Positions 4,406 through 31,336 of a DNA stretch of 53,147 bases are shown here, one piece after another (the first letter of the stretch is position 1; the number at the start of each line of letters is the position of its first letter). Where the stretch lies: positions 1-53,147 of IMG/VR virus record IMGVR_UViG_3300006793_000044. The stretch is one strand, 5' to 3'. The DNA comes from a virus (lineage: Duplodnaviria; Caudoviricetes). A model generated the notes under the pieces. It was not told the DNA's origin. It saw nothing but the letters and a program-made list of their open reading frames with translations, and did not search any database. A program made the translations under genes and the position numbers.

Positions 4406-6387
4406 TGTCTAACGCTGACACGAATACAGAAAAACAAAGCATTGGGGATAGAGTTGGGGCTGCTGTAAGTAAAGCCAAGGAAGACTTTAGTAATTGGCAA
4501 AATAGTAATCTAGAAAAAGCTAAAGAACAGGGGGCTTCTGGGTGGGCGGATTACCACAGTGGTCGTTCAATGAACGAAAAGGGGGAGCTAGTATACGGCT
4601 TAAATACTGGTGGAGATGATGGTCCTGCAGCTGGGCTCGTAAGTGCCCCAGCCCCTGCAGCTCCTGTCTTAACCAGATCCCCCGGTAACGTCAGCGCTGC
4701 AGACATTCTCAAGATGGCTGAAACCGCTGGACTTGTGAAATCCCAAGAGGACATGGAAGCCATTGTCGCAGATCCAAATGGCTTTTTATCCACTCGGGGT
4801 ATGACCATTACCGATCTAATCCCGTCTATGGATCCGAATGCCACTGGCACAAATCTAAACCCATACGACACACGATATGACCTCGGCACCGATCCTACCC
4901 TGACCACAGCTACGGTTGATGATGTGAACGCTGTTTCTGGAGTTACGAATCCAGGGGCGCAAACTTACACAGGGTCAACAGTTACAGGGAAATTAGATGC
5001 AAGCACTAAGGTAAATGCTGAGACAGGAACCATCGATGACGATAATCTTGTTAATACTAGCGATATTGAGATTGATGTAGCGGCAGAGGCCGAAGGCACA
5101 GGCGTACTGGGTAACTCTCTGAATGATTTTGCCACCCAAAACATCTCCACAATTATCGATACATCCACGCCAGCTGGTAAGCTGCTAGCTGAAAAGCTTG
5201 GTGAGGGCGGTTACACCGACCACAAAGCAACTATTCTAGGGCAGATGGATATTATTTCTGCTGAGTTTAAGGACAGCAACGGTAATCCAAAAATACCGCC
5301 TTGGGCACAAGCAATGGTCAGAGAGACCGAGAAGACTATTGCTTTTAGTGGCATTACTGGGACAGCGGCAACCGCTGCCTATGCAAATGCTGTGATGGAA
5401 GCAACCTTGGGCGTGGCTGATAAAGAGGCTGCTTTTTTCCAAACAATAACTACTAAGAACCTCGACAATCGCCAAGAAGGCATCATTAACAAAGCAAAGA
5501 TCCTAGCTAATTTTGAGCTGGGAAATCTTAACGCTCGAGAGACAGCGGCGGTCACAAACGCTAAAGCTTTTTTGGAGATGGATTTAAAAAACCTGACCAA
5601 TGAGCAGCAAGCCGAGGTTGTTAATAAACAGGCAGTCGTACAAGCTCTTTTTGAAGATCAAAAGGTTATGAACAGCCAACGGTTATTTACGGCAGAAAGC
5701 CGAAACGAGATGGCCAAGTTCTATGATGAGCTAAACTCAGCAATCGCTCGGCACAACTCCACAGAAATGAATACTTTAGCTAAGTTTAACGCTGGGGAAA
5801 CTAATACTGTTGGTCAGTTTAATGCTGAAATGTCAGATAGCCGAGACCGTTTTTACAGCGAAATGCAGTACAACATCGATGTCGCAAATGCCAAATGGAG
5901 ACAAACAGTCGAGACTACTGACACAGCTATGATGTTCGAGGCTGTCGGGCAAGACGTTAAGAACGCTCTCGATATCTCTACAGAGGCGCAAAACAGGCTG
6001 TGGGACAGCGTAGATAATCTTTTGGACTACATCTTCAAAGGCGCTGACAATGAGGCAAACAGAGACGCTGAAATTTTAGCTGCTCAAATCAGAGCTCAAG
6101 CTGGCAGCGGAAGCAGCTCAGATGGTAAGTGGGGAGCCTTTGGGAAAATAACGGCTGCAATAATTGCTAGTGATATGCGTCTTAAAGAAAACATCGAGCA
6201 CTTAGAAACTGTGGACGGTATCAGGTACTATACTTGGGATTGGAACGCTGAAGCTAAGCGCGTGGGTTTAAACACCGGGCCCACCTTCGGCGTGATGGCC
6301 CAAGAGGTCCAGAAAACCCACCCAGATGCAGTAGTGCAAGGCCCACAGGGATACTTGCTGGTAAATTACAGAGCGCTGCCTAAGTGA
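4405..6387 (+). CDS. Virion protein with C-terminal peptidase S74/intramolecular chaperone domain
   Basis: SDMRLKENI...Y.W.W...GVMAQEV signature. Confidence 0.75.
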   Translation: MSNADTNTEKQSIGDRVGAAVSKAKEDFSNWQNSNLEKAKEQGASGWADYHSGRSMNEKGELVYGLNTGGDDGPAAGLVSAPAPAAPVLTRSPGNVSAADILKMAETAGLVKSQEDMEAIVADPNGFLSTRGMTITDLIPSMDPNATGTNLNPYDTRYDLGTDPTLTTATVDDVNAVSGVTNPGAQTYTGSTVTGKLDASTKVNAETGTIDDDNLVNTSDIEIDVAAEAEGTGVLGNSLNDFATQNISTIIDTSTPAGKLLAEKLGEGGYTDHKATILGQMDIISAEFKDSNGNPKIPPWAQAMVRETEKTIAFSGITGTAATAAYANAVMEATLGVADKEAAFFQTITTKNLDNRQEGIINKAKILANFELGNLNARETAAVTNAKAFLEMDLKNLTNEQQAEVVNKQAVVQALFEDQKVMNSQRLFTAESRNEMAKFYDELNSAIARHNSTEMNTLAKFNAGETNTVGQFNAEMSDSRDRFYSEMQYNIDVANAKWRQTVETTDTAMMFEAVGQDVKNALDISTEAQNRLWDSVDNLLDYIFKGADNEANRDAEILAAQIRAQAGSGSSSDGKWGAFGKITAAIIASDMRLKENIEHLETVDGIRYYTWDWNAEAKRVGLNTGPTFGVMAQEVQKTHPDAVVQGPQGYLLVNYRALPK

Positions 6388-9764: not shown

Positions 9765-12700
9765 TGTCTTCAGCAGAAGAAGAAGCCCTCAAAAAACTTG
9801 GTATTACCCTTTCCCCTGCAGACGCTGGGGAGGTAACCGAAGAAGATCTTTTAAAAAAACTCGGTATAGAATTACCTCCGCCTTCCTTTGAGGCTGCTTT
9901 CCCGACCAATATGTACGATGGCCTTAGCCTCGGAGAGGCGATGGACCGCTATAAGGACATCGTTTATCAGAAAGACGAGAACGGGGAACATACCAGAGAG
10001 CTGAACCCGAATATTGAGCTGGTTGGTAACTCCCACAGATTTGTAAGGGAGGATGGCAGTGACTCACTAATCCCGGAACCCCAAACCAGTTTGATGGGCG
10101 GGGCAAGGATGCTCTTTGGGGCAGACCCTTATGATGTTACGGCCAAGGTTGGTGGTCTACAAATTCTGCGTAAAGGTATTCAAGAAAGCGTGTCTGATTT
10201 GAGAGAAGCAGACGCCGCTGTTTTAGAGAAAACAGGTGGGGCTGATCTACTTAGATCCTCTCCAATTGGCGATCAATATCCAGATGACCTTGTTGAGAGC
10301 GCTCAAGAAAAGGCAGTGAATGTCGATACTGGTGGGACTTTTTTTGATGCGTTGATTGCTGACGCTGGCCCTGCCATCATTGCTGGTCTTCCCGCTGGGA
10401 TGGGCACAGTACGTGCTTTATCTGTAATCCCGCAAACAACATCTAAAGTAGCCAATGTTGTCCTTAATACCTTTAAAGGTCTTACTGCGACACTTACCGG
10501 GGAAACGGCTGCAACGCTGACCACAGGCACAGACGAGGGCACATTAGTAATGGGCCCAAACGCTACCTTTCCAGCCTTCCCTGACTTAGTTGATCTTGGG
10601 GACGAGGAAGCAGACAGGGTCATCGAACACAGATTAAACACGCTGACTGAAGGCATGGCCCTTGGTGGGCTTGTTCTATCAGCGATAGCGACAACAAAGG
10701 CCGCTACCACCACTGCAGCTCAGTTTCTTCTGAACGGATTTGTGACTGCAGCTAAGGGGCCAGAGAAAGCTGTTTATATGCAGTTATCTCTCGAGCTGGC
10801 TAACCTTCCACCTGATGCTAACGAAGCAATGCTGGCAGAGGCGCGTCAGCGCGTAGCTAAGATTGTGGAGGATAATAAGGAAGTCCTAGTACAATCTATT
10901 CGTGGCATGGATCAGAACCAACAGGTCACAATTGATACGGTGAGTGCGCTTCTTAAGGGCACTGATAATCAAGCTGATCGAAGCAATGCCTTGGGCGTCA
11001 GGGCTGGGGCCATGAACATCCCGGGATCACCTGTTGTGGACGCTGTGGATGCACCTATCGCAGCTGTGCAGCAAGACTTAAAGCTACAGGCCCAAGAGCT
11101 GGGTGGAGATACAGCTGCTAAGCAGACTGCCAAGCTGCAAGAGGGAGCTGAGCTTCTCACGGATACTGCTCGGGGATCTGTGGATGAGGTCAGTGGTGGT
11201 CTAGCCCAAGCGCAAACTAAGTATGATGCAGACTATGCAAAGATCATGGAAGGCTTTGATCAAGATTTAGAATTTACGAGTATGCTTGATAGGTTAACTG
11301 CTCAATATGGCACAGATTTAGAAGGCCCTGCGACAGCAACAAGGGACAGAATAAAAGCGTTGCTTGAAAATGCCTATGTCTCGCAGAAAACTGCTAAAGA
11401 TAGCAAATATGCCGCTGTAAGCGGCGGACCAATTGATGCAGAAGCAATTATTGATCAGTTTGAACAAATCAATCTAGGCAGCATCACCGAAGCAGAAATT
11501 CTGTTAAAAAATAATAACGGGGCGGTAGGAAGACTTCATAAGCTTGTGCAACCTAAACTGGTTCCGGATGAGGCTGGTGAAGAGGGCGCTACGCGGCGTG
11601 AAACGCCAGAGGAAGTAATAGATCGAGTGCAGGAGTTTATGGACAATGATCCAAAGCTTAACTTCGGGTTCTTCTATAAAGACGTTAGACAAGAAATGTC
11701 CCGGCTTGCCGCTGAATTATTCAACAGAGATCGTCTTTTAGCTGGTTCAGAAGTGCGAAACTTTATTAGGTTTATCGACAACGACATGCTGGACTTTGTT
11801 GAGCAAGAAGGCGGCGATGCGCTTGCTGCGAATGCGCGTGAAGCTAAACGATATTTTGCAGAAGACTACATGTTTAAATCTGGTGGCCCGGGAGCACCAA
11901 AGTCGAAGCTAGCTGAATATGCTGAGCTGTACGATAGTACTCTTGGTCGTACCAACAGGCAGGATCTCACCGCAACAATGACAGGTGGGGGATTTAACAG
12001 AGATGCTTACGACAGCTCCTTTGAGGATCTTTCCACCAGCTGGTTGGAGCAAGGCAACCGTTTTGATATTGCACATCTTAAGAAAGCTCTGAGCACCCTC
12101 AAAGGAACAGATGGCGGCGAGATTGCAGATTATATGGTGCTGAAGGTACTAGGTCGCTTTGCATTGGATGCTAGGGCGGGTGGTATTGACGGCATTGACT
12201 ATGGCAAGCTGACTAGCGAGCTCGGTAAATACTCAAGCGTATTATCTGCTAATTTCCCAGAAAAAGCTGACTTAATTAATGGCTTCCTAAAACGACTTGA
12301 GACTGCCCGAGGCAGTCAGGATGAGTTACTTAAAGTACTCGAGAGTACGAAGGCTAGCGCAGACAAAGGCATAGCGCAGCTGCAGGGCAGTATTCTTACA
12401 GAGTTCTTTGATAAGTCCCTTACCCCACAGCTGAAGCAGATTGCTAACAGCTCAGAGATCTTTGCGACATCTGACCCGTACAAAGCGTTCTCTGGGTTCT
12501 TTACCGGGGCAGAGACTGTTAGCCGAATGCGACAGCTTTTACAGGCGATTGAGGCCTCACCAGAGGCTAATCGTCCTGTGATTAAAGATGCGTTAAAGCT
12601 AGCTTACAATAAGTTTCTAGATGACAAGCTTATTGGCAGGAAGTTACAGACTAGCGGTGTAACACCCATGAACGTGGCTCCCGGGGAGAAAGCTGCTGAT

Positions 12701-13216
12701 GAGCTCACCCCTCTGTTTCAAGTGGGCAGGGAGATCTACGGAGATGAGGGAGAAGTGCTGTTTAGTGGTCTTGAAGCATCACTCGGTATGGCCCGGGAAA
12801 CAGAAGCATTAAAAGGGGCCAGCCCGATAGCAGGGCAATCTCGCACTGCATTTAATCAGCAAGCACGGACTAACACCAACCGCATGATTGCCATCTTTAT
12901 TGGGCCTCTGAGCCGTATTGGTACGAGGATCCGATCAGTTCTTGGAGGTGCAATCGAGAAGATGGACCCAGATTCACGCGCTATGCTGATCCGCCAAAAC
13001 ATTCTAGCTAATCCTGATGAGTACCTCGCTCTAGCCAGCAAATATAACAAAAATCCGAATGATCCTTTATTGGAAGAAACACTAATGTATTTCCTTGGAT
13101 CTGGCCTGATCAAAACGGACCTAGAGGCGGATGCTGAAGGTGTGCCGGGTATGTTCGAGGATGCACGGGGCGAAGTAAGCGAGGCAGCTGAAGCAATAAA
13201 TGCAGTAGTCCAATAA
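9764..13216 (+). CDS. Large internal virion (ejection) protein
   Basis: 1150 aa helical ORF ending the late operon. Confidence 0.65.
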   Translation: MSSAEEEALKKLGITLSPADAGEVTEEDLLKKLGIELPPPSFEAAFPTNMYDGLSLGEAMDRYKDIVYQKDENGEHTRELNPNIELVGNSHRFVREDGSDSLIPEPQTSLMGGARMLFGADPYDVTAKVGGLQILRKGIQESVSDLREADAAVLEKTGGADLLRSSPIGDQYPDDLVESAQEKAVNVDTGGTFFDALIADAGPAIIAGLPAGMGTVRALSVIPQTTSKVANVVLNTFKGLTATLTGETAATLTTGTDEGTLVMGPNATFPAFPDLVDLGDEEADRVIEHRLNTLTEGMALGGLVLSAIATTKAATTTAAQFLLNGFVTAAKGPEKAVYMQLSLELANLPPDANEAMLAEARQRVAKIVEDNKEVLVQSIRGMDQNQQVTIDTVSALLKGTDNQADRSNALGVRAGAMNIPGSPVVDAVDAPIAAVQQDLKLQAQELGGDTAAKQTAKLQEGAELLTDTARGSVDEVSGGLAQAQTKYDADYAKIMEGFDQDLEFTSMLDRLTAQYGTDLEGPATATRDRIKALLENAYVSQKTAKDSKYAAVSGGPIDAEAIIDQFEQINLGSITEAEILLKNNNGAVGRLHKLVQPKLVPDEAGEEGATRRETPEEVIDRVQEFMDNDPKLNFGFFYKDVRQEMSRLAAELFNRDRLLAGSEVRNFIRFIDNDMLDFVEQEGGDALAANAREAKRYFAEDYMFKSGGPGAPKSKLAEYAELYDSTLGRTNRQDLTATMTGGGFNRDAYDSSFEDLSTSWLEQGNRFDIAHLKKALSTLKGTDGGEIADYMVLKVLGRFALDARAGGIDGIDYGKLTSELGKYSSVLSANFPEKADLINGFLKRLETARGSQDELLKVLESTKASADKGIAQLQGSILTEFFDKSLTPQLKQIANSSEIFATSDPYKAFSGFFTGAETVSRMRQLLQAIEASPEANRPVIKDALKLAYNKFLDDKLIGRKLQTSGVTPMNVAPGEKAADELTPLFQVGREIYGDEGEVLFSGLEASLGMARETEALKGASPIAGQSRTAFNQQARTNTNRMIAIFIGPLSRIGTRIRSVLGGAIEKMDPDSRAMLIRQNILANPDEYLALASKYNKNPNDPLLEETLMYFLGSGLIKTDLEADAEGVPGMFEDARGEVSEAAEAINAVVQ

Positions 13217-13242
13217 AAAACCCGGGGGAGCAACCCCCGGGT
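13215..13242 (-). terminator. Rho-independent terminator (minus strand)
   Basis: Perfect stem ACCCGGGGG/CCCCCGGGT followed by a U run on the minus strand. Confidence 0.85.
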
Positions 13243-13284
13243 CTATATAGCAGCTCGGAGAACGACCAAGAACCCCTCGCTGCC
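13215..13284 (-). ncRNA. Putative trans-acting sRNA antisense to the GGAGAACGACCA RBS motif
   Basis: Promoter upstream, GGCAGC/GCUGCU stem enclosing UUGGUCGUUCUCCGA, terminator downstream, no ORF. Confidence 0.7.
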
Positions 13285-13287
13285 ACA

Positions 13288-13316
13288 ATCTTATCTTAGT
13301 AAGGCCCCCCGGTCAA
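13288..13316 (-). promoter_or_regulatory. Sigma70 promoter TTGACC-N17-TAAGAT
   Basis: Plus strand shows GGTCAA at 13311-13316 and ATCTTA at 13288-13293. Confidence 0.7.
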
Positions 13317-13340
13317 CTTATACCGGGAGGTCTTTTTTTT
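13302..13340 (+). terminator. Rho-independent terminator of the late operon
   Basis: AGGCCCCCCGGT/ACCGGGAGGTCT stem followed by a T run. Confidence 0.8.
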
Positions 13341-13450
13341 GTACCTTGTATCTATCAATACAATGTAAGGGCCTCAAACTAACGAACATCAAGGAGACCA
13401 ATCCTCGATACACTTAATAATTACCATACTAATTACCTTAGTGGAAGGGG

Positions 13451-13684
13451 CTAGCGTTCATTTATTTCCTCTACGCCCATTTTCCAAACGTAAATGGGTG
13501 TGTGTTCCCCGACATAAGCCCCAAGAGTATTGTGACTGAAAAACTCCTGCGCCTCATCTTGATCCATGCCACCTTCCATAAGTATATCCACGCATTTATC
13601 TGCGTCATAAACGATGATTTCGGGGGAGCCACAACGCTCCCCCACACCAATTATAGCTGCATCAAAACCGTCAGCGGTGAGCAT
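13451..13684 (-). CDS. Conserved phage hypothetical protein
   Basis: ADGFDAAIIG...EAQEFFSHNTLGAYVGEHTP; coupled to RNR gene. Confidence 0.75.
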   Translation of the reverse strand: MLTADGFDAAIIGVGERCGSPEIIVYDADKCVDILMEGGMDQDEAQEFFSHNTLGAYVGEHTPIYVWKMGVEEINER

Positions 13685-15426
13685 TATTCACACTTTCTGA
13701 GGCCTGTGGCGGGGTCATAATAACAAGCTCCGCCCTCTTCTATGAAATTGTCGGGTTCTTCGATATCAGGCTCTGCTACATCCTCAACAGCTGATGCATT
13801 TAAAATCCCAAAACGCTTCCCACTGGCACGGAATGTCGTACAACCGCTGGAACCGCCTTCATAGGCGGTCATGTAGACTTGTTTAAAGTCTTCCCAGCCC
13901 ACATCATCTCCGACATTGCATGTTTTACTACAAGCAGAATCGACATATTTACTGGCTGTGTTCAATACTTTTACATGATCAAATACGGACAGTTCATTAG
14001 TTGTTTTGCCCTTGATCCCAAAGTTCTGGTAGCCGTAATCCTTCACAGTTTCGATCCTTGCCCCATCAAACGTCTGGATCGTTCTATCGTAACTATGGGA
14101 GAATACAGGCTCAATGCCCGAGCTCACATTGTCCGCTGACAGGCTAATTGTGCCAGTAGGAGCTACGGACAATAGATGGCTATTTCTAATGCCGTGGGTC
14201 TGTATTAAATCGCGGATACTGAGCGGTAATGTTTGTGCAAATTCAGATTCAAGGTACTTATCATTATACAGTGGAAACTTACCTTTTTCGACGGCCAAAG
14301 AGATAGAAGTCATGTAGCAGCCATCCCTAATTACGCTCATGATTTTTTCAAGCCAGTAGATGAAATCATCTGACCCATATGTATAGCCCATAGATTCAAT
14401 AGCGTTAGCCACGCCAGTGACACCTAACCCCATCCTGCGCGTGTCTTTGGCTTGCTTTTCCTGCTGTGGCAGTGGGTAAGTTGCTTTGTCCACAACATTG
14501 TCCATTGCCCGAACAACATGCGGAATATCGTTCTTAAGCATTTGCATGTTAAAGGAGTATTTACCGTCAGGCGTCATTTGAACGTATTTAGCAAGATTGA
14601 AAGACCCCAACAAACAGGCCCCGTAGGGCGGCAGAGGCTGTTCTCCGCAGGGATTTGTTGCAGCGATACGCTCACAGTAATGTAGGTTATTTTTTCTATT
14701 AATACGATCAATAAATAGGATACCCGGCTCAGCCCAATCCCAAGTGCTGCGTAGGATATCGTCCCACAATGCCCGGGCGTTAATAGTGCTGTAGACTGTA
14801 CCCTCAAACACCAGATCAAAGTCACTGTCGGCTTTCACAGCCGCCATAAACTCGTCAGTAACGCCCACGCTCATGTTAAACTGTGTAAGCTCTGTATCGT
14901 TGTTTTTTGCGCGGATAAATTTTTCGATATCGGGGTGATCGACCCTCATAACGGCCATCTGCGCCCCGCGTCTGTGTCCTGCACTGGCAATAGTTTTACA
15001 GGTGGCATCAAAAATTCCCATAAAGCTCAGAGGACCGCTAGATCTACTATCTAAGCTTCTAATATGCGACCCATGAGGACGAAGCGTACTGAAATCATAA
15101 CCGATCCCACCGCCCAGCTGCATTGTCCGGGCAGCTTCACCATTTGCATCCATGATGCCTTCCATACTGTCTGGGATAGTTCCACTGACAAAGCAATTGT
15201 ATGGCGTCACCGTGCGCGGTGCGCCCATAGCAGATTGCACCCGCCCAGCTGGAAGAAATCTCTGGTTATATAGAATTGTTCTAAAATTGTTGAAATGTGC
15301 TTCATCGTCTTTAAGCGCTTCAGCAACCCGTGTCATTGCTTCGGTAAAAGTCTCGCCCTCTGAGCGATATTTCATAGCGTGTATTTCTTCAGAAATATTC
15401 AGCGTAGGCCCGTAGTGATTTTTCAT
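13684..15426 (-). CDS. nrdJ: Class II (B12-dependent) ribonucleotide reductase
   Basis: FLPAGR, NCFV, RRGAQM, TNPCGEQ, APTGT motifs; C-terminal Cys pair; no small subunit gene nearby. Confidence 0.9.
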   Translation of the reverse strand: MKNHYGPTLNISEEIHAMKYRSEGETFTEAMTRVAEALKDDEAHFNNFRTILYNQRFLPAGRVQSAMGAPRTVTPYNCFVSGTIPDSMEGIMDANGEAARTMQLGGGIGYDFSTLRPHGSHIRSLDSRSSGPLSFMGIFDATCKTIASAGHRRGAQMAVMRVDHPDIEKFIRAKNNDTELTQFNMSVGVTDEFMAAVKADSDFDLVFEGTVYSTINARALWDDILRSTWDWAEPGILFIDRINRKNNLHYCERIAATNPCGEQPLPPYGACLLGSFNLAKYVQMTPDGKYSFNMQMLKNDIPHVVRAMDNVVDKATYPLPQQEKQAKDTRRMGLGVTGVANAIESMGYTYGSDDFIYWLEKIMSVIRDGCYMTSISLAVEKGKFPLYNDKYLESEFAQTLPLSIRDLIQTHGIRNSHLLSVAPTGTISLSADNVSSGIEPVFSHSYDRTIQTFDGARIETVKDYGYQNFGIKGKTTNELSVFDHVKVLNTASKYVDSACSKTCNVGDDVGWEDFKQVYMTAYEGGSSGCTTFRASGKRFGILNASAVEDVAEPDIEEPDNFIEEGGACYYDPATGLRKCE

Positions 15427-18597: not shown

Positions 18598-20724
18598 TTA
18601 ATTCAAGCTCACTTCCGACATCTCCATCCAGTTTTTTCCAACTTCCATTTCAATATCCAGAGGGATAGGCAACTTGTAGCCGAACCGTTCTTCAATCTCA
18701 TTTCCAATGTCTCGCATGGCCCAGACAGCGCATTCTTTGACCTGTTCAAGTTCCCCGGGGTAGATATCAATCACAATGCTATCATGCACGGTCAGGATCA
18801 GCTTAGAACGCAGATTACGCATTTTAAACGCTCTTAGAGCCCTCACACAGGCCAAGGGGACGATAGTCCCGGTGGCATGGCTTTGGACAGGAAAGTTAAC
18901 GATCTGGGTAGCCCCAGATACACGGCCATTTCTAAATCGTACTGCGTTTGGGAAGCTAAACTCGCGTCCGCATGGAATGCGAACTAAGCCATCCTCGATA
19001 ACGCCATCCATTAGCTTCTTATGCCACTTTTTTAGGCCAGAATAGATGTCGAAGTATGTTTTGAAGTATTCCTGTACGTGGGGGGCTTCTCCAGCCCCCA
19101 TGCCACCGTAGAGTGGCGCAAACGTGTAAGCTTTGGCAGCTTGGCGCATGGATTTAGTAACCTTATCCGCCGCACATTTATTAATAATCATTGCAGTCTG
19201 TGAATGAATGTCTTTGCCACTTTTTACATCGTCTAAGATCTGCTTATCCCCTGACAGGATCCCGGCAACGCGAAATTCTAGCTGGGAGTAATCAATCTCG
19301 CCTAATAGTCCGCCTTCAAAGCGACTAACCACAGCCTTACGCACTGGGAATTTACCGCCCTTGGGCTGGTTTTGGAAGTTGGGCCTACTAGAGCTTAGCC
19401 GACCAGTAGCAGTGGTGGTCTGATTAAAGTTTGCGTGTAGCAGACCGCTTGGCCGAGTGTGATTAGCAATGCCTTTTACAAACGAATTGAGATAAGTATT
19501 CAGAGCGTTTAATCGAGAGTATTTAGTCAGGAAGTTAATCGCCCGAGTGTTACTCTTACGCTCGGCTTGTACCAGCAATCGCTGAATAGTCATTTTGTCA
19601 GCCCGGAACCCGTTAGCTGTAGCATCAGCTGGGCCCTCGGGGATCAGCCCAAGACCCGCCTTTTTGGTGGTTGGTCTGTAGACCGCCCCAGAGCCCTCGC
19701 ACATCTTACACGCTGGCTGTCGCTTGTATGGATCTCCCTTTTTAGTGACTTTGTGCTGCTTGCCTGATCCAGAGCATAGGTCACAACGCTCTGCTATAGT
19801 CCTGTACGCCAGCTGCATGTTGCTTTTAACATGGAAGACCCACTCGCTATCAGACATCCGGGGAGGATATGTGGGACGGCCATCTGGACCTAACCCAATG
19901 TTAAACGCCTTGATAAAAGCTTTCTTATGGTAGTCACTTCTAAACTCGTACCCATAGATCAGGCGGGTCATATCCTGCCCCGAGGAGAGATTGGTGACTG
20001 TATCACCCATCACCTCGATGGTCTCTTTTTCAAGCTCTGTTTGTATTTCTTCTCGCTCATTCTCAAATAAAACACGCACTTGCGAAAGCGAATCCAGGTC
20101 GATGCAAATACCGTTTCTTTCGATCTCAATGAGAAACCAAGTCATTTCGTTCATCAGCTCAAAGGTGGGCCACAGCCCACTATTGTGCTCTTCTTTAAGG
20201 TCTGCAATTTGGGCTAGATATATTTCAGCGCAACTGATTACATCCGCCGCTGCATACTCCAAAACTATTTCTAAGGGCATCCGCTCAAAACCTACGCCCT
20301 GCGCGAACATCTCATCGATGAGTTCAGATTTTTTGCGTGTAACATTACGCCGCTCAGCTGTAGCTTTAAGACTTTTGCTTTGCTGTATGCCTCGGGCAAA
20401 AATGTACTCGCCTATCATTGTGCAATGCAGTTTCGCTGGCAGCACAAAGTCCATCTCAACCAGCCAAGTTACATCAAATTTTGTATTGTGGCACACAACT
20501 AAATCAGCCCTCAGTAAATCGTTTTGAAAAGGCTCTCGGCTATCTGGATGAGGCTGATCATTATGATACCATACGCTGTTTTTAACAGGCCCGAGGGTTT
20601 TACCATCCTCAATCATAAGCCATAACGCCATCACACAAGCATTCTCCTCATGCATGGCAGAAGGGTCCATGATGTCACCTAGAGGCGATACAGTCGTTTC
20701 TAAATCAAGGACACATACAATCAT
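18598..20724 (-). CDS. polA: Family A DNA polymerase with 3'-5' exonuclease and inserted DnaJ-like zinc finger
   Basis: DLET, HNTKFD, TATGRLSS, DYSQLEFR, R..AK...F..LYG, TVHDS; two CXXCXGXG motifs. Confidence 0.95.
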   Translation of the reverse strand: MIVCVLDLETTVSPLGDIMDPSAMHEENACVMALWLMIEDGKTLGPVKNSVWYHNDQPHPDSREPFQNDLLRADLVVCHNTKFDVTWLVEMDFVLPAKLHCTMIGEYIFARGIQQSKSLKATAERRNVTRKKSELIDEMFAQGVGFERMPLEIVLEYAAADVISCAEIYLAQIADLKEEHNSGLWPTFELMNEMTWFLIEIERNGICIDLDSLSQVRVLFENEREEIQTELEKETIEVMGDTVTNLSSGQDMTRLIYGYEFRSDYHKKAFIKAFNIGLGPDGRPTYPPRMSDSEWVFHVKSNMQLAYRTIAERCDLCSGSGKQHKVTKKGDPYKRQPACKMCEGSGAVYRPTTKKAGLGLIPEGPADATANGFRADKMTIQRLLVQAERKSNTRAINFLTKYSRLNALNTYLNSFVKGIANHTRPSGLLHANFNQTTTATGRLSSSRPNFQNQPKGGKFPVRKAVVSRFEGGLLGEIDYSQLEFRVAGILSGDKQILDDVKSGKDIHSQTAMIINKCAADKVTKSMRQAAKAYTFAPLYGGMGAGEAPHVQEYFKTYFDIYSGLKKWHKKLMDGVIEDGLVRIPCGREFSFPNAVRFRNGRVSGATQIVNFPVQSHATGTIVPLACVRALRAFKMRNLRSKLILTVHDSIVIDIYPGELEQVKECAVWAMRDIGNEIEERFGYKLPIPLDIEMEVGKNWMEMSEVSLN

Positions 20725-24547: not shown

Positions 24548-24746
24548 AGGCTAATGAGAGGCAGCGCAGCTGCTCTCCCATGCCCTTCTGCACAGACCCG
24601 GTAAATAGGGCCTTGCGGGTTCCTACAGGGGCTTCACCAGCTATAAGCGCAAAGGTAGCGTTACCTCGATGAGGATCCTCTGACAGTTCGAATGTAACAT
24701 GGCCCACAGACCATTGCTCACGCTTGATTGCTCTGCTTGTACTCAT
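24507..24746 (-). CDS. Hypothetical protein
   Basis: ATGA overlap with upstream gene. Confidence 0.6.
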   Translation of the reverse strand: MSTSRAIKREQWSVGHVTFELSEDPHRGNATFALIAGEAPVGTRKALFTGSVQKGMGEQLRCLSLAFDALEQRKFANDS

Positions 24747-25099
24747 GCTGCTAATGCTTCCTTTCCAATTTGTGTTATTGCGTACCCAGTGGATGGTCTT
24801 TCACCAACTTTGAAAGCCAACGATTTGTTCGTTAGAGCAGACAGCATTGATGAAGCTGCGCGGTGGTGGCAATTAAGCTCCCCGGCAATCTCTTTTGCGT
24901 TGCGAGGCGCAACATTGAGTATCTCAAGAATATTCCTTGCAAAGTTACCCAATGGTGCCTTGGGGCGGTGTTGAATATCACATGGCAGAGGCCCTCTGAG
25001 GGGCTTGCCATCGATGCCTTTAGTGTTGTGCTGAAGCCTCTCAAAGGCCAACATATCTTGTGACAACTGCTCGTCACGTTTAGCAATTAAATCTTTCAT
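24743..25099 (-). CDS. Winged-helix (MarR-like) DNA-binding protein
   Basis: AKEIAGELNCHHRAASSMLSAL...GYAITQIGKEAL pattern. Confidence 0.65.
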   Translation of the reverse strand: MKDLIAKRDEQLSQDMLAFERLQHNTKGIDGKPLRGPLPCDIQHRPKAPLGNFARNILEILNVAPRNAKEIAGELNCHHRAASSMLSALTNKSLAFKVGERPSTGYAITQIGKEALAA

Positions 25100-25255
25100 T
25101 CAGTGATCCACCTCATATTCTTCGCCCACAGACATGGCTGCACGAATGTGATTTAGCCGCTCTATCGTTTCGATACCGTGGTATGTCTCGCCAAACTGTT
25201 TGGCATCAGCTTGAGTACCAGCCCATTTGCCTAGCCCGTTTGAATATAGTTTCAT
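25100..25255 (-). CDS. 51 aa hypothetical protein (not in ORF track)
   Basis: MKLYSNGLGKWAGTQADAK...; preceded by AAGGAGAACGACCA. Confidence 0.7.
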   Translation of the reverse strand: MKLYSNGLGKWAGTQADAKQFGETYHGIETIERLNHIRAAMSVGEEYEVDH

Positions 25256-25276
25256 TGGTCGTTCTCCTTTGGGGTA

Positions 25277-26413
25277 TTAATCGCCATACACTTTGTTAAT
25301 TATTTGATTGGCTCGTTTTTTAGAGCGGTGAAGATACGGGGAAAGGCCCTCACGGGTCATGTGGCCAGTGACCGCCATCATCTGATCTTCAGTGGCGTCT
25401 CGATCAGCTATGTAACTGATGCCACTGCGTCTAAAATCCCCAAAGCGAATGGATTGCGGGAGCCCTACCTCGTCCATCACCTTGCGAGCGTCATGGTAGT
25501 AATAACGATCATAAGGCTGCAGAAATTTGTCGCTAAGAAAGATAAAATTAGTCACGCTAGGTGGACGTATCCTTTTAGCGATCTCATGCACCTCACGGTG
25601 CCATTTAATGCGCTCTCGAAGCTCTCTTGGCAGCTCGAACCAGCATTCTGCCCCAGTTTTCTCTTGAGTAAAATCAAGATTAATCAGGCCCTCGGTATCT
25701 ACCCGTAAATGGTTATCATTTATGTTGTCCCATTTAAGCTGTCGTATATCTCCGGGACGCTGGCATAGGCGGAAGCAGAACAAAGCCATAGACCCCAAAG
25801 TGTAGTTGTAGGTATTATCTGCGTGTTTCACAAAATCTAACAACTGGCGATCTGTCCACGCAGCCTTACGTGGTTTTGGTTTCGCCACCCGTTGGTTCTG
25901 CCAAGGGTTGAGTTCCACACCACAAGTGTCATCCTCATCCTGCAGAGCTACGTTCCAAATCAAGCGCAATATTTTACATAATGTGTAGGCACTATTACCA
26001 TCCTCAGTCGCAGCAAAATGATTAATAAATAACCTAGCAGACTTACGTGTTACATTAGTTATGGCCATATCACCGAATTTACTACCGTCCGGGAGATGTC
26101 TGCTTTCAGATGACTTTTTCATCTGCCCTAAATAACTGGTCTTACTGTTTTCCTTGATTGTCCTAAATTCTTGAGTAGTGATATACCACTTGAACAGATC
26201 ATCTACAGTTTCTGCTGAAACGGTACTAAACGATTGTTTATAAACAGATGTTTTTCGTCTTTCAACCTCTTCGGCAAAGGCCAAAGCATCCGTTTCAGTA
26301 TTAAATGTCGATGTGCTTAAACCCGTAGATTTTTTTACATCTGCTGGTAATTGAACAATGTACGCAAACGTACCATCACGCCGTTCACGTACTTTTGGCC
26401 TAATTTTTGACAT
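25277..26413 (-). CDS. int: Tyrosine recombinase/integrase
   Basis: QRPGDI, QEKT, DFRRSG, TGH, catalytic Tyr in SPYLH. Confidence 0.9.
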   Translation of the reverse strand: MSKIRPKVRERRDGTFAYIVQLPADVKKSTGLSTSTFNTETDALAFAEEVERRKTSVYKQSFSTVSAETVDDLFKWYITTQEFRTIKENSKTSYLGQMKKSSESRHLPDGSKFGDMAITNVTRKSARLFINHFAATEDGNSAYTLCKILRLIWNVALQDEDDTCGVELNPWQNQRVAKPKPRKAAWTDRQLLDFVKHADNTYNYTLGSMALFCFRLCQRPGDIRQLKWDNINDNHLRVDTEGLINLDFTQEKTGAECWFELPRELRERIKWHREVHEIAKRIRPPSVTNFIFLSDKFLQPYDRYYYHDARKVMDEVGLPQSIRFGDFRRSGISYIADRDATEDQMMAVTGHMTREGLSPYLHRSKKRANQIINKVYGD

Positions 26414-26625
26414 ATTTTCATCTCCTCTTGGTCGCAGACTCTTACATTAGTAGCTACCTGAGTCAGATGTCAAATGAAAAATAAAATTCACTAAGGTATT
26501 TACAAATGTACCTAAGAGCAGTACCCTGCGAGGGTCTTAGCCCGAGCTATACCTATATAGACTTGCTTTTTAGGCCCACCGCCCCTGAAGGGCGGTTGGC
26601 CCCCAATAAAATACATACAAAGCAA

Positions 26626-27030: not shown

Positions 27031-27241
27031 GTTCACGCACGTCTTTTCCACATAAATCAAAGATAAAACAGGTACTTAATATTAATGTGATATTAGTATG
27101 CAAACAAACACAAATCAGAAAATAACTGATTAAATTACTTTTTGATGTCGTTATTAATCCTTTGACTCTGCTTATCTAATGTATTTTAAAGAGCTTAGGG
27201 TCTCGCAAGCCCGATTAAAACTAATACGGAGAACGACCATA

Positions 27242-27943
27242 ATGCAGCTATTAAATACCAATGAGTCCAACACCAAAATAAGAAAAAGCGCGAGCGGTAC
27301 TATCTACCGAATCGCTAGCCTATCCCTATATCCTGACATTCTGACTTGCCCGGGATCAGCTCTGGCTAATTGTATGGATGCTTGTTTAAAATCAGCTGGC
27401 CGGGGGCAAATGCAAAGCGTTGTTACCGCCAGACAATCTAAAACTGATCTTTATCATAACGACCCGGAGCGCTTTTTTGAGCTTCTAAACGATCAGTTAT
27501 TTGCTTTCGAGCGCTCTTGCGCTCGCCAAGGCAAAACACCGCTAGCCCGGTTAAACACAATTTCAGATATACCTTACGAAAAGCACGGGATCCCACAAAA
27601 CCACCCTAATATCGGTTTGTACGACTACACCAAACTAGCCTCGAGACTCGGCAGGACACCACCAAATTACAAATTGATGTTTAGCTATTCAGCTGAACCA
27701 AAATATCAAAACAGTGTGGCAATGGCATTAAAAACTAATTGCCCGGTGGCCGTAGTATTCCGGGGTGGATTGCCAAAGGTCTTTTTAAATCGCCCGGTAA
27801 TTGATGGTGATAAATCCGACATTGTGAACTTCAATTCTGGCGCTGTTGTCTTGGGTCTCAAGCTTAAAGGCCCCCGGCGGATCCAGACCATGAAAACAAA
27901 TTTCATAGTGGATAATCCAGAGCTCGAGAGGATAGCAGCATGA
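27242..27943 (+). CDS. gp88-like protein
   Basis: CP......C...CL...GRG, RLNTISD, YDYTK motifs; start reassigned to ATG after GGAGAACGACCA. Confidence 0.75.
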   Translation: MQLLNTNESNTKIRKSASGTIYRIASLSLYPDILTCPGSALANCMDACLKSAGRGQMQSVVTARQSKTDLYHNDPERFFELLNDQLFAFERSCARQGKTPLARLNTISDIPYEKHGIPQNHPNIGLYDYTKLASRLGRTPPNYKLMFSYSAEPKYQNSVAMALKTNCPVAVVFRGGLPKVFLNRPVIDGDKSDIVNFNSGAVVLGLKLKGPRRIQTMKTNFIVDNPELERIAA

Positions 27944-28623: not shown

Positions 28624-28788
28624 GCTATTTTTATATGCTAGTTGGTTTCTTTGCGTTCTGGTATTTCATAGCGCAATCAATACCATTTTAAAATTACGCT
28701 TGTAACGCTCGCAATGTTACACTAATAAAAACATTAAGAGCGGAATCTCTGCTCTTAATTAAACCTTAACAAGTACGGAGAACGACCA

Positions 28789-29700
28789 ATGCCAGATCTT
28801 ATCTATTCGCGGAGTGCATCCGCTAGCGAGCTGCCTTTAAGCGCTATTCATAGCAAGGCGAGCGCTGCTTTCACTGAACTACCAATCGAAGGCGTATCAA
28901 AAAACTATGGTCATTTACGCACCATAGATCTGCTCCCGGTATTAAAAGACTATGGATATCTCCCGGTGCAAGCAGCGCAAACCAGCGCACGGAAAAAAGA
29001 CAAAATCGGCCACCAGAATCACATGTTAGCGTTTGCTCATGAAAATGATCTAATGCAGCCAAGCGATGGCCGCCCGGAGATAATAATCTATAATTCAAGC
29101 GACAGATCGAGCGCTTTAAAATGTTTTGCCGGGTATTTCCGGGGAATATGCAGCAATGGGCTAGTTGCTGGTGATGGGTTCCAGAGTAAAGTGTACCACA
29201 ATATCAAAAATATCATGAGCTTTGAGGATCAATTACGCGATATGATAGCGAGATTGCCCGAAATGTTGGGCTTAGTTGATAAAATGAAAGGCACGTTAAT
29301 CGACGGCCAGACCGGGCTCGAGATAGCAGAATCTGGGGCAAGCTTGCGCTGGGCCAATTGGGAAAAAGAGCAGTTTCGGGCTTGGAATACGGCCAGAAAA
29401 GCAGAAAAGAACTTTAACGATATCGAGCTTGCCCGGGGGTCATACTACACGGATCAAACTATTTCGGATTTGCTCGACAGCAAACGCCCGGGCGAGCGTT
29501 CCTTAGAAAAACAAACTGCGAGCTTATGGCACGTATTTAACCGGGTTCAGGAAGGATTGATTCGCGGCAAAACGGAAATCCAGAGCGTCAGCAATTTGCG
29601 CCCGTCAGGCACCACTCGCAAAGCAACCGGGCTGACCAGCGTCCCGAAAAGCGTGAAAGTAAACCGGGAATTTTGGGATTGTGCGGCAGCCTATGCTTAA
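28789..29700 (+). CDS. DUF932-family protein
   Basis: PEIIIYNSSD.SS....AG.FR.ICSNGL and SLW..FNRVQE motifs. Confidence 0.8.
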   Translation: MPDLIYSRSASASELPLSAIHSKASAAFTELPIEGVSKNYGHLRTIDLLPVLKDYGYLPVQAAQTSARKKDKIGHQNHMLAFAHENDLMQPSDGRPEIIIYNSSDRSSALKCFAGYFRGICSNGLVAGDGFQSKVYHNIKNIMSFEDQLRDMIARLPEMLGLVDKMKGTLIDGQTGLEIAESGASLRWANWEKEQFRAWNTARKAEKNFNDIELARGSYYTDQTISDLLDSKRPGERSLEKQTASLWHVFNRVQEGLIRGKTEIQSVSNLRPSGTTRKATGLTSVPKSVKVNREFWDCAAAYA

Positions 29701-29827: not shown

Positions 29828-29901
29828 TTTGATTAACTGCAATTAATACCCTAACAATTAACTTACTGGGAACGGATCCCGGCAATATCGGAGAACGACC
29901 A

Positions 29902-30261
29902 ATGCAATTAATCACTAATGAAATCAGAATACAGCTCGAGCTTAACTATATCGAGAATCAAAAAGCAGAAATGAGCGATTACGACTTTGACCCCCGGCCA
30001 GTGGTAAAGCTCTTTAATCCGTGCGGATCTCAGACTTGGTTACTTACTGAGATCGAGCCTAAAACTAACAACGCTTTCGGGCTTTGTGATATGGGCATGG
30101 GATCGCCAGAGCTTGGCTATGTATCGATTACGCAACTTGCAGAGATCGAGATTCCGGGTTGGCGCAATATGGGAATAGAGCGCGATATTCACTTTAACCC
30201 GGTCATGACCATCTCAGAATATGCGGATCAAGCCCGTGAAACCGGGAGTATTGCAGCATGA
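29902..30261 (+). CDS. DUF2958-family protein
   Basis: PVVKLFNP.G..TWLLTE, FGLCD.G.G.PELGYVS, IERD.HF. Confidence 0.85.
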   Translation: MQLITNEIRIQLELNYIENQKAEMSDYDFDPRPVVKLFNPCGSQTWLLTEIEPKTNNAFGLCDMGMGSPELGYVSITQLAEIEIPGWRNMGIERDIHFNPVMTISEYADQARETGSIAA

Positions 30262-30819: not shown

Positions 30820-31121
30820 CTCTGGATCTGGAAAGCTTCAAGCTCCCGGCGCACTGGGCTAGCCCCTTAATCAATGGTGATATCTCTGGTCTATCAATTA
30901 AAGAGTGTCGCCAGCTCGACTCTTTCGAGACTAAAATGCTAAAAAAATATGGCAGCTGCCATGCAATAGATTGCAGCAGCGAACCGCATTTTATGAAGTA
31001 TCATGATGCCCATATGTTTGGTGTTCTGGCGTGTGACGTTTTGGAATTTACTTTTGATGTCACTGGTCAAGAGGAACAAGGAATGTATTGCACGCATTAC
31101 GACCCGGAGTCAGACCAATGA
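30816..31121 (+). CDS. Conserved phage hypothetical protein
   Basis: LPAHWAS.LINGD.SGL motif; coupled ORF. Confidence 0.7.
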   Translation: MTLDLESFKLPAHWASPLINGDISGLSIKECRQLDSFETKMLKKYGSCHAIDCSSEPHFMKYHDAHMFGVLACDVLEFTFDVTGQEEQGMYCTHYDPESDQ

Positions 31122-31336
31122 GCAGCTGCACAAACAAAGTAAGTTATTGGATCCCTCGAGGATACTCTTACAAAGAATATTTTGTGCAGTGTGGCCGCAC
31201 GGATCCACACGGCGACCGGGCAATATGTGACACATGCAGCAGCAGCCCGGTGGTTATGCGCGAGATAGAGCAGCTCGAGGATAATATCAGAGCGGATAAT
31301 GCAGCGCTCGCTAGCGCTGGCTGGGGTGAAATCTAG
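31118..31336 (+). CDS. Small Cys-rich (zinc-binding) protein
   Basis: C...CG.T.PHG...ICD.C; ATG 31118 after GGAGTCAGACCA. Confidence 0.6.
   Translation: MSSCTNKVSYWIPRGYSYKEYFVQCGRTDPHGDRAICDTCSSSPVVMREIEQLEDNIRADNAALASAGWGEI

What the first reader, a model, noticed from the sequence alone, without database searches (positions are those of the whole stretch)
13215..13316. Phage-encoded trans-acting sRNA complementary to a ribosome-binding motif shared by several early genes
Seen: between the convergent late and replication operons the minus strand has TTGACC-N17-TAAGAT, then a ~70 nt ORF-free unit. The unit is a GGCAGC/GCUGCU stem enclosing UUCUUGGUCGUUCUCCGA, followed by a perfect terminator. 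Its loop is the exact reverse complement of the SD-to-start region of four distant genes: DUF2958 (TCGGAGAACGACCAA, 29888-29902, 15 nt), DUF932 (CGGAGAACGACCAA, 28776-28789, 14 nt), gp88-like (CGGAGAACGACCA, 27227-27239, 13 nt) and the 51 aa gene after the integrase (GGAGAACGACCAA, 25255-25267, minus). Each target heads a translationally coupled gene run. The copy at 13255-13269 is the only one not followed by a start codon. Inference: one host-polymerase-transcribed sRNA shuts off translation of the early/accessory regulon, acting as an RNA repressor for lysogeny, superinfection immunity or the early-to-late switch. No CI-like repressor is recognisable in the window.
Basis: partly seen in the sequence, partly recalled or inferred. 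Interest (0 to 1): 0.92.

Follow-up and report, generated by a model that had tools for sequence, protein, structure and literature searches.

The report
Phage small RNA masking early-gene starts
A group of abundant marine phages carries an undescribed ~70-base RNA gene whose exposed loop mirrors a private ribosome-binding tag in front of several early genes; RNA and tags change together between lineages, so the RNA most likely blocks translation of those genes, though no transcript has been seen.

Summary
The 12-mer GGAGAACGACCA occurs 5 times (0.15 expected). Four copies are the SD-to-start region of real genes. The fifth lies in an ORF-free unit with a sigma-70-like promoter, a hairpin and a strong terminator on the minus strand.

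The unit belongs to a conserved family at the convergent junction of HMO-2011-type roseophages. Of 60 related junctions, 38 have promoter, UGGUC-loop hairpin and terminator, 9 have the same layout with another loop, and 13 have none. The hairpin stem co-varies around an invariant UUGGUC loop (89.5% of cells paired against 49.8% shuffled, 0/500).

In five sequence-distinct lineages, including isolate CRP-738, the cognate sRNA is perfectly complementary (10-15 nt) to the translation starts of 3-4 early genes. Orthologous GP88-like and DUF932 leaders change in step with it.

No discrete transcript was shown, and repression and biological role are inferred. Rfam and the searched literature hold nothing like it. 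The closest known analogue is the P1/P7 c4 RNA. This scan has noted analogous anti-RBS phage sRNAs on other DNA, but not this family.

The parts
13311..13316 (-). -35 box TTGACC of the sRNA promoter. It lies in the loop and 3' arm of the late-operon terminator hairpin.
   Evidence: TTGA[CT] is kept at the same place in 31 of 31 junction variants listed (30 TTGAC, 1 TTGAT), although the hairpin stems around it differ.
13288..13293 (-). -10 box TAAGAT, 17 nt after the -35 box.
   Evidence: Relatives have TAnnnT-type hexamers at 17-18 nt (spacer 17 in 30 loci and 18 in 15 loci).
13213..13284 (-). Predicted sRNA of about 69-72 nt. The start is predicted at 13284-13280 and the 3' end in the U run near 13215-13212.
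   Evidence: Fold. The body is 71-73 of 73 nt identical in 4 relatives whose flanks are 34/55 and 58-68/73 identical. No Rfam family reaches threshold.
13246..13287 (-). Stem-loop 1, with an inner GGGG/CUCC helix and a 12-nt apical loop holding UUGGUC.
   Evidence: Covariation of the family hairpin is shown.
13255..13269 (-). Seed UUGGUCGUUCUCCGA, the reverse complement of the shared SD-to-start cassette.
13218..13244 (-). Intrinsic terminator of the sRNA: 11-bp stem followed by a U run. It is probably also the terminator of the RNR operon.
   Evidence: Every family member has one.
13301..13342 (+). Terminator of the late (structural) operon. It lies beyond the sRNA gene, so a late mRNA ending here carries the full complement of the sRNA.
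   Evidence: In nearly all rows an A run and hairpin precede the -35 box.
13386..13411 (-). Second hairpin with a UUGGUC hexaloop, about 100 nt upstream. It is present only in this phage.
   Evidence: It is absent from L002-L006. No exact target in the window.
27227..27239 (+). Target site: 13 nt complementary, 2 nt before the ATG of the GP88-like gene 27242-27943.
28776..28789 (+). Target site: 14 nt complementary, overlapping the A of the ATG of DUF932 gene 28789-29700.
29888..29902 (+). Target site: 15 nt complementary, overlapping the A of the ATG of DUF2958 gene 29902-30261.
25255..25267 (-). Target site: 13 nt complementary, at the start of the 51-aa gene 25100-25255 just downstream of the integrase.
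31106..31117 (+). Weaker candidate site, GGAG-TCA-GACCA, before the ATG of a 72-aa gene (31118-31336).
26426..26434 (-). Weaker candidate site: 9-nt perfect complement abutting the SD of the integrase gene (25277-26413).

Best explanation
The interval holds a real, separately transcribed phage small RNA gene of about 70 nt. It is one member of a family conserved at the junction where the replication/RNR operon and the structural operon of integrase-bearing HMO-2011-type roseophages converge.

How it most likely works:
- Host RNA polymerase starts at a sigma-70-type promoter nested in the late-operon terminator hairpin and stops at the RNA's own intrinsic terminator.
- The RNA presents a UUGGUC core in the loop of a co-varying hairpin. 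In this phage the loop is enlarged to UUCUUGGUCGUUCUCC.
- Loop and 3' arm pair in trans with a private SD-spacer cassette, GGAGAACGACCA(A), directly in front of the start codons of four early genes beside the integrase: GP88-like, DUF932, DUF2958 and a 51-aa gene. Two further starts pair more weakly.
- Pairing covers the Shine-Dalgarno sequence up to the AUG. This should exclude the 30S subunit and switch off each translationally coupled gene run.

Shown: the sequence anatomy, its conservation, the hairpin covariation and the sRNA-target co-variation.

Inferred: transcription, repression rather than activation, and timing. On the role I split the odds about evenly between shutting off early genes during lytic growth and lysogeny/superinfection immunity.
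For: 1. Anatomy. Promoter, hairpin and terminator are all on the minus strand.

2. Selection. The sRNA body is 71-73 of 73 nt identical in 4 relatives. The non-coding DNA upstream is 34/55 identical and the neighbouring coding DNA 58-68/73. The two variable stem positions keep pairing as G.U or A-U on this strand only.

3. Family. Of 60 related junctions, a script found 35 with promoter, TGGTC hairpin and terminator, 10 with another loop and 15 without. Three loci (L036, L041, L042) were misfiled by the script and reassigned from their rows. The corrected split is 38 / 9 / 13.

4. Structure (12 sequences, 11 distinct).
- All 7 stem pairs change on both sides.
- 89.5% of cells are paired against 49.8% in shuffles (0/500).
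- Covariation score is 1.068 against 0.299 (0/500). Slid controls give 34-49% paired.
- 75/84 cells pair on the transcribed strand against 67/84 on the opposite strand.

5. Targets. I counted perfect complements of at least 10 nt ending no more than 25 nt before an ATG that opens at least 40 codons, against 1000 shuffles of the sRNA.
- window: 4 sites (1/1000 shuffles reach it)
- G006: 4 (1/1000)
- G003: 4 (1/1000)
- G007: 4 (3/1000)
- CRP-738: 3 (8/1000)
With the 9-nt, 10-nt-gap criterion CRP-738 has 8 against 0.88 expected (0/1000).

6. Specificity. Non-cognate sRNAs give 0-2 such sites per genome (matrix).

7. Orthologous targets co-vary.
- GP88-like leader duplex energies are -27.1 to -30.5 kcal/mol for the 4 cognate pairs and -10.9 to -22.0 for the other pairs in the table (16 cells, including the CRP-738 sRNA row).
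- DUF932 leaders give -33.1, -27.5 and -25.6 for cognate pairs.

8. Absence where expected. CRP-9, which has no sRNA, has 0 SD-GACCA-ATG starts. sRNA-bearing genomes have 2-5.
Against: - No discrete transcript was shown. The only RNA-library cover is one 188-nt contig (13179-13366, depth 2.8, unstranded) in 1 of 4 runs of a single study. It is longer than the predicted RNA on both sides and could be read-through RNA or DNA.
- Any antisense match is also a sense copy on the other strand. Co-variation alone therefore does not fix the acting strand. That rests on the promoter, the terminator and a modest pairing excess (75 against 67 of 84 cells).
- One non-cognate DUF932 pair is nearly as stable as the cognate one (-27.0 against -27.5).
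- Two contigs give weak statistics: G002 2 sites (56/1000) and G001 1 site (257/1000). Both are cut in the early region.
- A naive duplex-energy scan of the whole window does not rank the four targets among its 16 best places.
- The lineages are related, so the number of independent events is about five, not dozens.
- The direction of regulation and the role were not tested.
Confidence: 0.75

Rival explanations
1. The acting molecule is the other strand. The late-operon mRNA ends beyond this unit, so its 3' UTR carries a sense mimic of the early-gene start cassette. The mimic would titrate a protein (or ribosomes) that binds the cassette; a translational operator protein would be the real regulator.
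For: The late terminator lies at 13301-13342, so the + transcript contains the cassette copy. Sequence co-variation fits a sense mimic as well as an antisense RNA. Translational repressor proteins that bind start regions are known in phage T4 (title and abstract of PMC3014915 in the listing).
Against: TTGAC-N17/18-TAnnnT is kept in front of the unit in 45 of 60 junctions by script, and a strong terminator follows it on the same strand. G.U pairs fit only the minus strand (9 G.U pairs; 75 against 67 of 84 cells). No RNA-binding regulator was recognised among 38 ORFs scanned.
Confidence: 0.08
2. The RNA exists but its main job is local. It would act as a cis-antisense partner of the late mRNA 3' end, or as a processing and termination element of the two converging operons. 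The matches to early-gene starts would be secondary.
For: The RNA is fully complementary to the late 3' UTR in nearly every family member. The position at the convergent junction is conserved.
Against: This does not explain why 3-4 distant early-gene starts per genome match the cognate RNA in five lineages. It also does not explain why orthologous leaders change in step with it.
Confidence: 0.07
3. The RNA pairs with the tagged starts but activates or stabilises them, for example by opening the leader hairpins that precede each cassette.
For: In G006 and G007 a 13-nt site lies upstream of the SD.
Against: In the window and in G003 the pairing covers the SD and runs to the start codon. That is the usual geometry of repression. 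In G006 the loop also covers the GGA of the SD.
Confidence: 0.07
4. There is no function. The fifth copy would be an orphaned start cassette left by gene loss or recombination, lying between two terminators.
For: Repeated start cassettes could serve as recombination points. The window also holds a second, target-less UUGGUC hairpin.
Against: The unit is more conserved than the adjacent coding DNA. Its stem co-varies. It recurs with different matching sequences in five lineages.
Confidence: 0.03

Closest known systems
c4 antisense RNA of phages P1 and P7 (immI region)
   Same: A phage-encoded small structured RNA whose loop sequences pair around a ribosome-binding site and block translation. 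Specificity is set by matching RNA and target bases that differ between related phages (passage on c4 in review PMC12197685).
   Different: No Rfam family, c4 included, reaches threshold here. From recall: c4 is made from the same operon as its target and acts on one downstream message. Here the gene has its own promoter 12-17 kb from its targets. It addresses four to six separate early-gene starts that share a private tag.
sar RNA of phage P22 and OOP RNA of lambda
   Same: Small phage antisense RNAs that lower translation or stability of a regulatory gene's mRNA (passages in PMC12197685).
   Different: Those RNAs are cis-encoded opposite their single target. This RNA is trans-encoded with short seeds and several targets.
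Start-associated sequences (SAS) of Cluster K mycobacteriophages
   Same: An asymmetric 13-bp motif sits immediately upstream of the start codons of many phage genes of different families. The authors leave open whether an RNA or a protein binds it. [quoted passage not shown]
   Different: The motif sequence, host and phage type all differ. No partner RNA has been described for SAS. Here the single reverse copy sits in a promoter-to-terminator unit that co-varies with the tags.
Trans-acting phage sRNAs such as VpdS (VP882) and PreS (lambda)
   Same: Independently transcribed phage sRNAs that act by base pairing (Table 1 and text of PMC12197685).
   Different: As described there, they act largely on host mRNAs or host sRNAs. 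No repeated private start tag in the phage's own genes is mentioned. None of them comes from marine roseophages: the review has 0 occurrences of 'Roseobacter'.

Membership tests
Rfam C4 antisense RNA family (P1/P7 c4) | Match to the family covariance model | tested here: not met
   No Rfam family reaches its gathering score in the window. At E up to 10 on 13150-13470, c4 is not among the 9 weak hits; the best is 23.4 bits against a threshold of 49.
Rfam C4 antisense RNA family (P1/P7 c4) | Loop sequences complementary to the target ribosome-binding region | tested here: met
   13-15 nt complements at four starts. This shows it works like c4, not that it is a member.
Rfam C4 antisense RNA family (P1/P7 c4) | Encoded in the same operon, upstream of its target (feature recalled, not taken from a call) | tested here: not met
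   The gene is at 13.2 kb and the targets at 25.2-31.1 kb. It has its own promoter-like site.
Trans-acting base-pairing sRNA (general class) | Own promoter and intrinsic terminator bounding an ORF-free unit | tested here: met
   for the window. The layout is conserved in 45 of 60 junctions by script. This is a prediction from sequence only.
Trans-acting base-pairing sRNA (general class) | Seed-target complementarity that co-varies between relatives | tested here: met
Trans-acting base-pairing sRNA (general class) | A discrete transcript of the predicted size and strand | tested here: inconclusive
   One unstranded 188-nt contig from an RNA library spans the unit but is longer than it.
Trans-acting base-pairing sRNA (general class) | Effect on target translation; dependence on a chaperone such as Hfq | not testable with these tools
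   Needs reporter assays and genetics.
Start-associated sequences of Cluster K mycobacteriophages | The 13-bp consensus given in PMC3203893 | tested here: not met
   The window's tag is GGAGAACGACCA, a different sequence from the consensus quoted.
HMO-2011-type phage (for the window as a whole) | Family A DNA polymerase with a DnaJ-type CXXCXGXG insert, and near relatives among named HMO-2011-type isolates | tested here: met
   Pfam finds DNA_pol_A plus DnaJ_CXXCXGXG in one protein. The RNR is 80.7% identical to that of CRP-738, which is listed among the HMO-2011-type isolates in PMC9038755. That the insert is a hallmark of the group is recalled.

The most novel reading that the evidence does not exclude
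In the integrase-bearing HMO-2011-type phages, which show no recognisable CI-like protein, this sRNA is the primary immunity determinant. A prophage would keep its own early genes, and those of incoming relatives, silent purely by RNA masking of privately tagged start sites. The five or more sRNA/tag specificities would be heteroimmunity classes produced by an arms race between co-infecting marine phages. The late mRNA, whose 3' UTR is the perfect complement of the sRNA, would act as the built-in sponge that removes the repressor once lytic growth is committed.
Probability: 0.22. Interest if true: 0.85.

Novelty: new variant of a known kind. Interest (0 to 1): 0.7.

Why it matters
HMO-2011-type phages are described as a dominant, broadly distributed marine viral group (abstract of PMC9038755). 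The passages I searched in that paper contain no mention of promoters, terminators or RNA regulators.

If the reading holds:
- It would be the first regulatory RNA family for this group.
- It would define an early-gene regulon (GP88-like, DUF932, DUF2958, DUF2786 and small ORFs) made of proteins that PHROGs or Pfam list as of unknown function or do not match at all.
- It would support a general design: a phage marks a set of its own genes with a private ribosome-binding tag and controls them together with one small RNA.
- That design may also explain the unexplained start-associated sequences of Cluster K mycobacteriophages.

It is directly testable because isolate CRP-738 and its host FZCC0089 carry the system.

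Tried and rejected
- Exact-pattern scan of viral contigs with a 14-mer of the tag. Only 3 (L116, L178, L188) were sRNA copies of near relatives already known. The rest looked like chance matches, so the scan was of no use for finding targets.
- MAFFT alignments of whole sRNAs (A2-A5) put the conserved hexaloop in different columns. No covariance model was built and no model-based search of the family was made. Covariation was instead counted on 20-nt windows anchored on the loop (A6) and in a script.
- A sliding duplex-energy scan of the whole window with the full sRNA body gave a heavy background (mean -19.7, sd 4.9). The four targets were not among its 16 best places, because it ignores intramolecular structure. 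I rely on exact complements instead.
- RNA evidence. Four marine metatranscriptome runs of one study hold parts of 12200-14700 as contigs. One 188-nt contig spans the unit. This gives no strand, no ends and no discrete RNA. Stretches without cover are not evidence.
- Search for prophages in species genomes. Of 80 loci only two had an RNR above 70% identity: L316, a 48.9-kb contig binned with a Dependentiae MAG, and L371, a 3.5-kb fragment. No lysogen was identified, so lysogeny of sRNA-bearing phages is not shown here.
- A DUF2958 search in five related contigs found nothing.
- RNR searches showed that G008-G011, G013 and G014, which carry GP88, lack a match to the window's RNR. The junction was not looked for in G013-G015.
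Pfam gives only a sub-threshold SAM-like hit.
- The second hairpin's seed (13391-13402) has no exact second copy in the window. At up to 2 mismatches there are 10 matches against 4.9 expected, none at an obvious start.
- Type-B sRNAs (L007-L009, no UGGUC loop). The L008 and L009 RNAs match the GP88-like leader of L228 in two blocks of 7 and 8-9 nt. Energies are -28.5 and -25.0 against -15.5 to -22.9 for four controls. L008 and L228 are different contigs of one sample, so this is only suggestive.
- Supplementary files of papers were not opened. The subgroup and integrase tables of PMC9038755 could bear on the link between sRNA and integrase.
Full report
**What the window is.** The window is a 53,147-base IMG/VR virus record estimated 99% complete. 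It encodes:
- a class II-type ribonucleotide reductase;
- a family A DNA polymerase with a DnaJ-type zinc-finger insert;
- a DnaB-like helicase;
- a tyrosine integrase.

Its nearest named relative is Roseobacter phage CRP-738, with an RNR 80.7% identical. CRP-738 is listed among the HMO-2011-type isolates in PMC9038755 (passages).

**The observation.** The structural operon on the + strand ends with a 1150-aa gene whose stop is at 13216. The replication/RNR operon on the minus strand ends with a 77-aa gene whose stop is at 13451. Between them, on the minus strand, lie these features:
- TTGACC, 17 nt, TAAGAT;
- a hairpin at 13287-13246;
- an 11-bp GC-rich terminator at 13244-13218 with a U run.

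The 81-nt RNA folds at -43.1 kcal/mol (z = -5.6; 0 of 200 shuffles as good).

The 12-mer GGAGAACGACCA occurs five times in the window against 0.15 expected; 0 of 100 shuffles reach five. Four copies end 0-2 nt before the ATG of a gene. The genes are GP88-like, DUF932, DUF2958 and a 51-aa ORF next to the integrase. The fifth copy is the reverse complement of the hairpin loop and has no start codon behind it.

The only adjustment is that the transcript probably starts near 13281, so the outer stem pairs may not be in the RNA.

**Close relatives.** I used the RNR protein to fetch 80 related loci from viral contigs. In the five closest (RNR 93-95% identical, four distinct sequences) the sRNA body is 71-73 of 73 nt identical. 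The non-coding DNA just upstream is 34 of 55 identical and the adjacent coding DNA 58-68 of 73. Two of the three variable positions lie in the stem. They turn G-C into G.U, or G.U into A-U, which keeps pairing only on the minus strand.

**More distant relatives.** Of the 80 loci, 60 reach a long opposite-strand ORF downstream of the RNR. The other 20 end first or show none. The 60 give 44 distinct junction sequences. Most have the same layout:
- an A run and a hairpin, which form the late-operon terminator read on the other strand;
- TTGAC in the loop and 3' arm of that hairpin;
- 17-18 nt, then a TAnnnT-type hexamer;
- a small hairpin, a U-rich linker and a strong terminator.

A script classed 35 loci as promoter + TGGTC hairpin + terminator, 10 as the same layout with another loop, and 15 as lacking it. 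Three loci (L036, L041, L042) were misfiled by the script. Their rows show TTGACC-N17-TATAAA or TATAAC followed by CUUGGUCGG. The corrected split is 38 / 9 / 13.

**Covariation of the hairpin.** The loop UUGGUC is invariant in 12 anchored sequences while the stems differ completely.
- All 7 stem pairs show changes on both sides.
- 89.5% of cells pair against 49.8% in shuffles (0 of 500).
- The covariation score is 1.068 against 0.299 (0 of 500). Sliding the partner by 1-3 columns gives 34-49% paired.
- On the transcribed strand 75 of 84 cells pair, 9 of them G.U. On the opposite strand 67 of 84 pair.

From recall: UUGG fits the YUNR U-turn motif typical of antisense-RNA recognition loops.

**Co-variation with targets.** I fetched whole contigs of five relatives, two complete genomes found through the GP88-like protein, and CRP-738. 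Each lineage has its own sRNA sequence and its own start-region tag, and the two match.

| Lineage | sRNA segment | Matching tag at starts |
|---|---|---|
| window | UUGGUCGUUCUCC | GGAGAACGACCA-ATG at four starts |
| G003 | CUUGGUCGGUUCC | GGAACCGACCAA-(A)A-ATG at three starts |
| CRP-738, G002 | loop GAUUGGUCC; linker UGUUCGUUGGUU | GGACCAAUC-N1-2-ATG at three starts; AACCAACGAACA just before the SD of two more |
| G006 | linker GUUUAGCUAGUAA plus loop UUGGUCC | CUAGCUAAAC-AAA(A)-GGACCA at four leaders (TTA-extended and GGACCAA in two) |
| G007 | linker UGUUUUGUGUUUA plus loop | UAAACACAAAAC(A) at three leaders; GGAACUGACCAA at two of them |

Sources.

I counted perfect complements of at least 10 nt that end no more than 25 nt before an ATG opening at least 40 codons, against 1000 shuffles of the sRNA:

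| Genome | Sites at starts / all sites | Shuffles reaching it |
|---|---|---|
| window | 4 of 7 | 1/1000 |
| G006 | 4 of 6 | 1/1000 |
| G003 | 4 of 6 | 1/1000 |
| G007 | 4 of 8 | 3/1000 |
| CRP-738 | 3 of 7 | 8/1000 |
| G002 | 2 of 4 | 56/1000 |
| G001 | 1 of 2 | 257/1000 |

G002 and G001 are contigs cut in the early region. One of the four G007 sites and one of the three CRP-738 sites look like chance.

With the 9-nt, 10-nt-gap criterion CRP-738 has 8 sites against 0.88 expected (0/1000). Non-cognate sRNA-genome pairs give 0-2.

**Orthologous genes.**
- The GP88-like leader pairs with its cognate sRNA at -28.6, -28.2, -27.1 and -30.5 kcal/mol. The other pairs in the table (16 cells, including the CRP-738 sRNA row) give -10.9 to -22.0.
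- The DUF932 leader gives -33.1, -27.5 and -25.6 for cognate pairs. One non-cognate pair is close, at -27.0.
- The DUF932-like gene carries the lineage's tag in the window, G003, G006 and CRP-738. CRP-738 gp63 matches DUF932 only below threshold.
- The one sRNA-less HMO-2011-type relative examined is CRP-9, which has only a 34-nt junction gap. It has no SD-GACCA-ATG start in its first 50 of 56 kb. sRNA-bearing genomes have 2-5.

**Context.**
- The targets cluster around the integrase. The GP88-like gene heads the operon that diverges from the integrase gene, and the 51-aa target follows the integrase.
- Eight of nine sRNA-bearing records that I hold encode an integrase. The ninth is a 49%-complete fragment. 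CRP-9's first 50 kb has none. These phages are related, so this is not an independent association.
- Pfam finds no CI-type HTH protein among 38 window ORFs. One 118-aa ORF (24743-25099, minus) has sub-threshold winged-helix-like hits.
- The late-operon terminator lies beyond the sRNA gene. Late mRNA ending there contains the full complement of the sRNA.
- In relatives where the RNR gene abuts the unit, the sRNA terminator is the only terminator for the RNR operon. The RNA may therefore also arise as a 3' end of that mRNA.

**Expression.** Four marine metatranscriptome runs from one study hold parts of the region as contigs. One 188-nt contig covers 13179-13366 with 6 differences at depth 2.8. 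It spans the unit but extends beyond it on both sides, is unstranded and could be DNA. This is inconclusive.

**Comparison with what is known.**
- No Rfam family reaches threshold. The best weak hit is 23.4 bits against 49, driven by the terminator.
- Full-text searches found nothing on this RNA: 'HMO-2011' with 'sRNA' gave 0 papers, and 'roseophage' with 'non-coding RNA' gave 2 unrelated papers.
- PMC9038755 has 0 occurrences of promoter, terminator or RNA polymerase.
- A 2025 review of phage sRNAs (PMC12197685; passages) lists c4, sar, OOP, VpdS, PreS and others, none from roseophages.

The closest analogue in mechanism is the P1/P7 c4 RNA. This RNA is not a member of that family. It differs in having its own promoter far from its targets and in addressing several separately tagged genes.

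The repeated start tags recall the start-associated sequences of Cluster K mycobacteriophages.

**Verdict.** I put 0.75 on a real trans-acting sRNA that masks the tagged early-gene starts. The main uncertainty is experimental: transcript, direction and role. I class it as a new variant of a known kind, namely phage antisense control of translation. Here it takes the form of a dispersed, privately tagged regulon with a conserved kissing core and lineage-specific flanks.

Noticed in passing
window 13386-13411 (minus): A second hairpin with the same UUGGUC hexaloop and a 9-bp stem, followed by a GUUCGUUAGUUUGAG linker resembling the CRP-738-type sRNA. It lies in a stretch that the close relatives L002-L006 lack. 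No exact target was found in the window. It may be a decayed or host-directed paralogue.
   Followed up: partly
window 24743-25099 (minus): A 118-aa ORF two genes after the integrase with sub-threshold winged-helix-like Pfam hits (Dimerisation 19.0 bits, HVO_A0261_N 17.5 bits). It is the only hint of a DNA-binding regulator near the switch region.
   Followed up: no
MZ892992 (L213) 4407-4417: In CRP-738 and G002 the helicase gene start (aATGGACCAATC) carries a 10-nt complement to the sRNA loop at the start codon itself. gp09 (start 4091) has GGACCA directly before its ATG. The regulon may therefore reach into the replication module.
   Followed up: partly
L230-L240 (GP88-like loci), about 30 nt before the ATG: Another group of phages keeps a nearly invariant leader, CACACCAATAA..ACGAGTGTATAA, before the GP88-like gene. 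Its partner, if any, was not found in the 42-kb contig G008.
   Followed up: partly
G010 (L308-L310) around 30.4-33.6 kb; also L266, L280: A GP88-bearing phage of another type has at least four copies of a 17-20-bp AT-rich palindrome (CTTATAATTAATTATAAG type) around the GP88-like gene. They look like protein operator sites rather than RNA targets.
   Followed up: no
L008 6250-6300 and L228 about 2430-2500: The sRNA variants without the UGGUC loop (L007-L009) are complementary in two blocks (7 and 8-9 nt, one bulge) to the GP88-like leader on another contig of the same sample (-28.5 against -15.5 to -22.9 kcal/mol for controls). This suggests the principle also holds in this sub-family.
   Followed up: partly
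L316 (RXKB01000026.1, 48.9 kb): A contig binned with a 'Candidatus Dependentiae' MAG carries an RNR 72% identical to the phage's. It is probably a mis-binned phage contig. No sRNA-like unit is evident in the 500 nt after its RNR.
   Followed up: partly
window 18598-20724 (minus): The family A DNA polymerase carries a DnaJ-type CXXCXGXG zinc-finger segment (residues 311-350).
   Followed up: no
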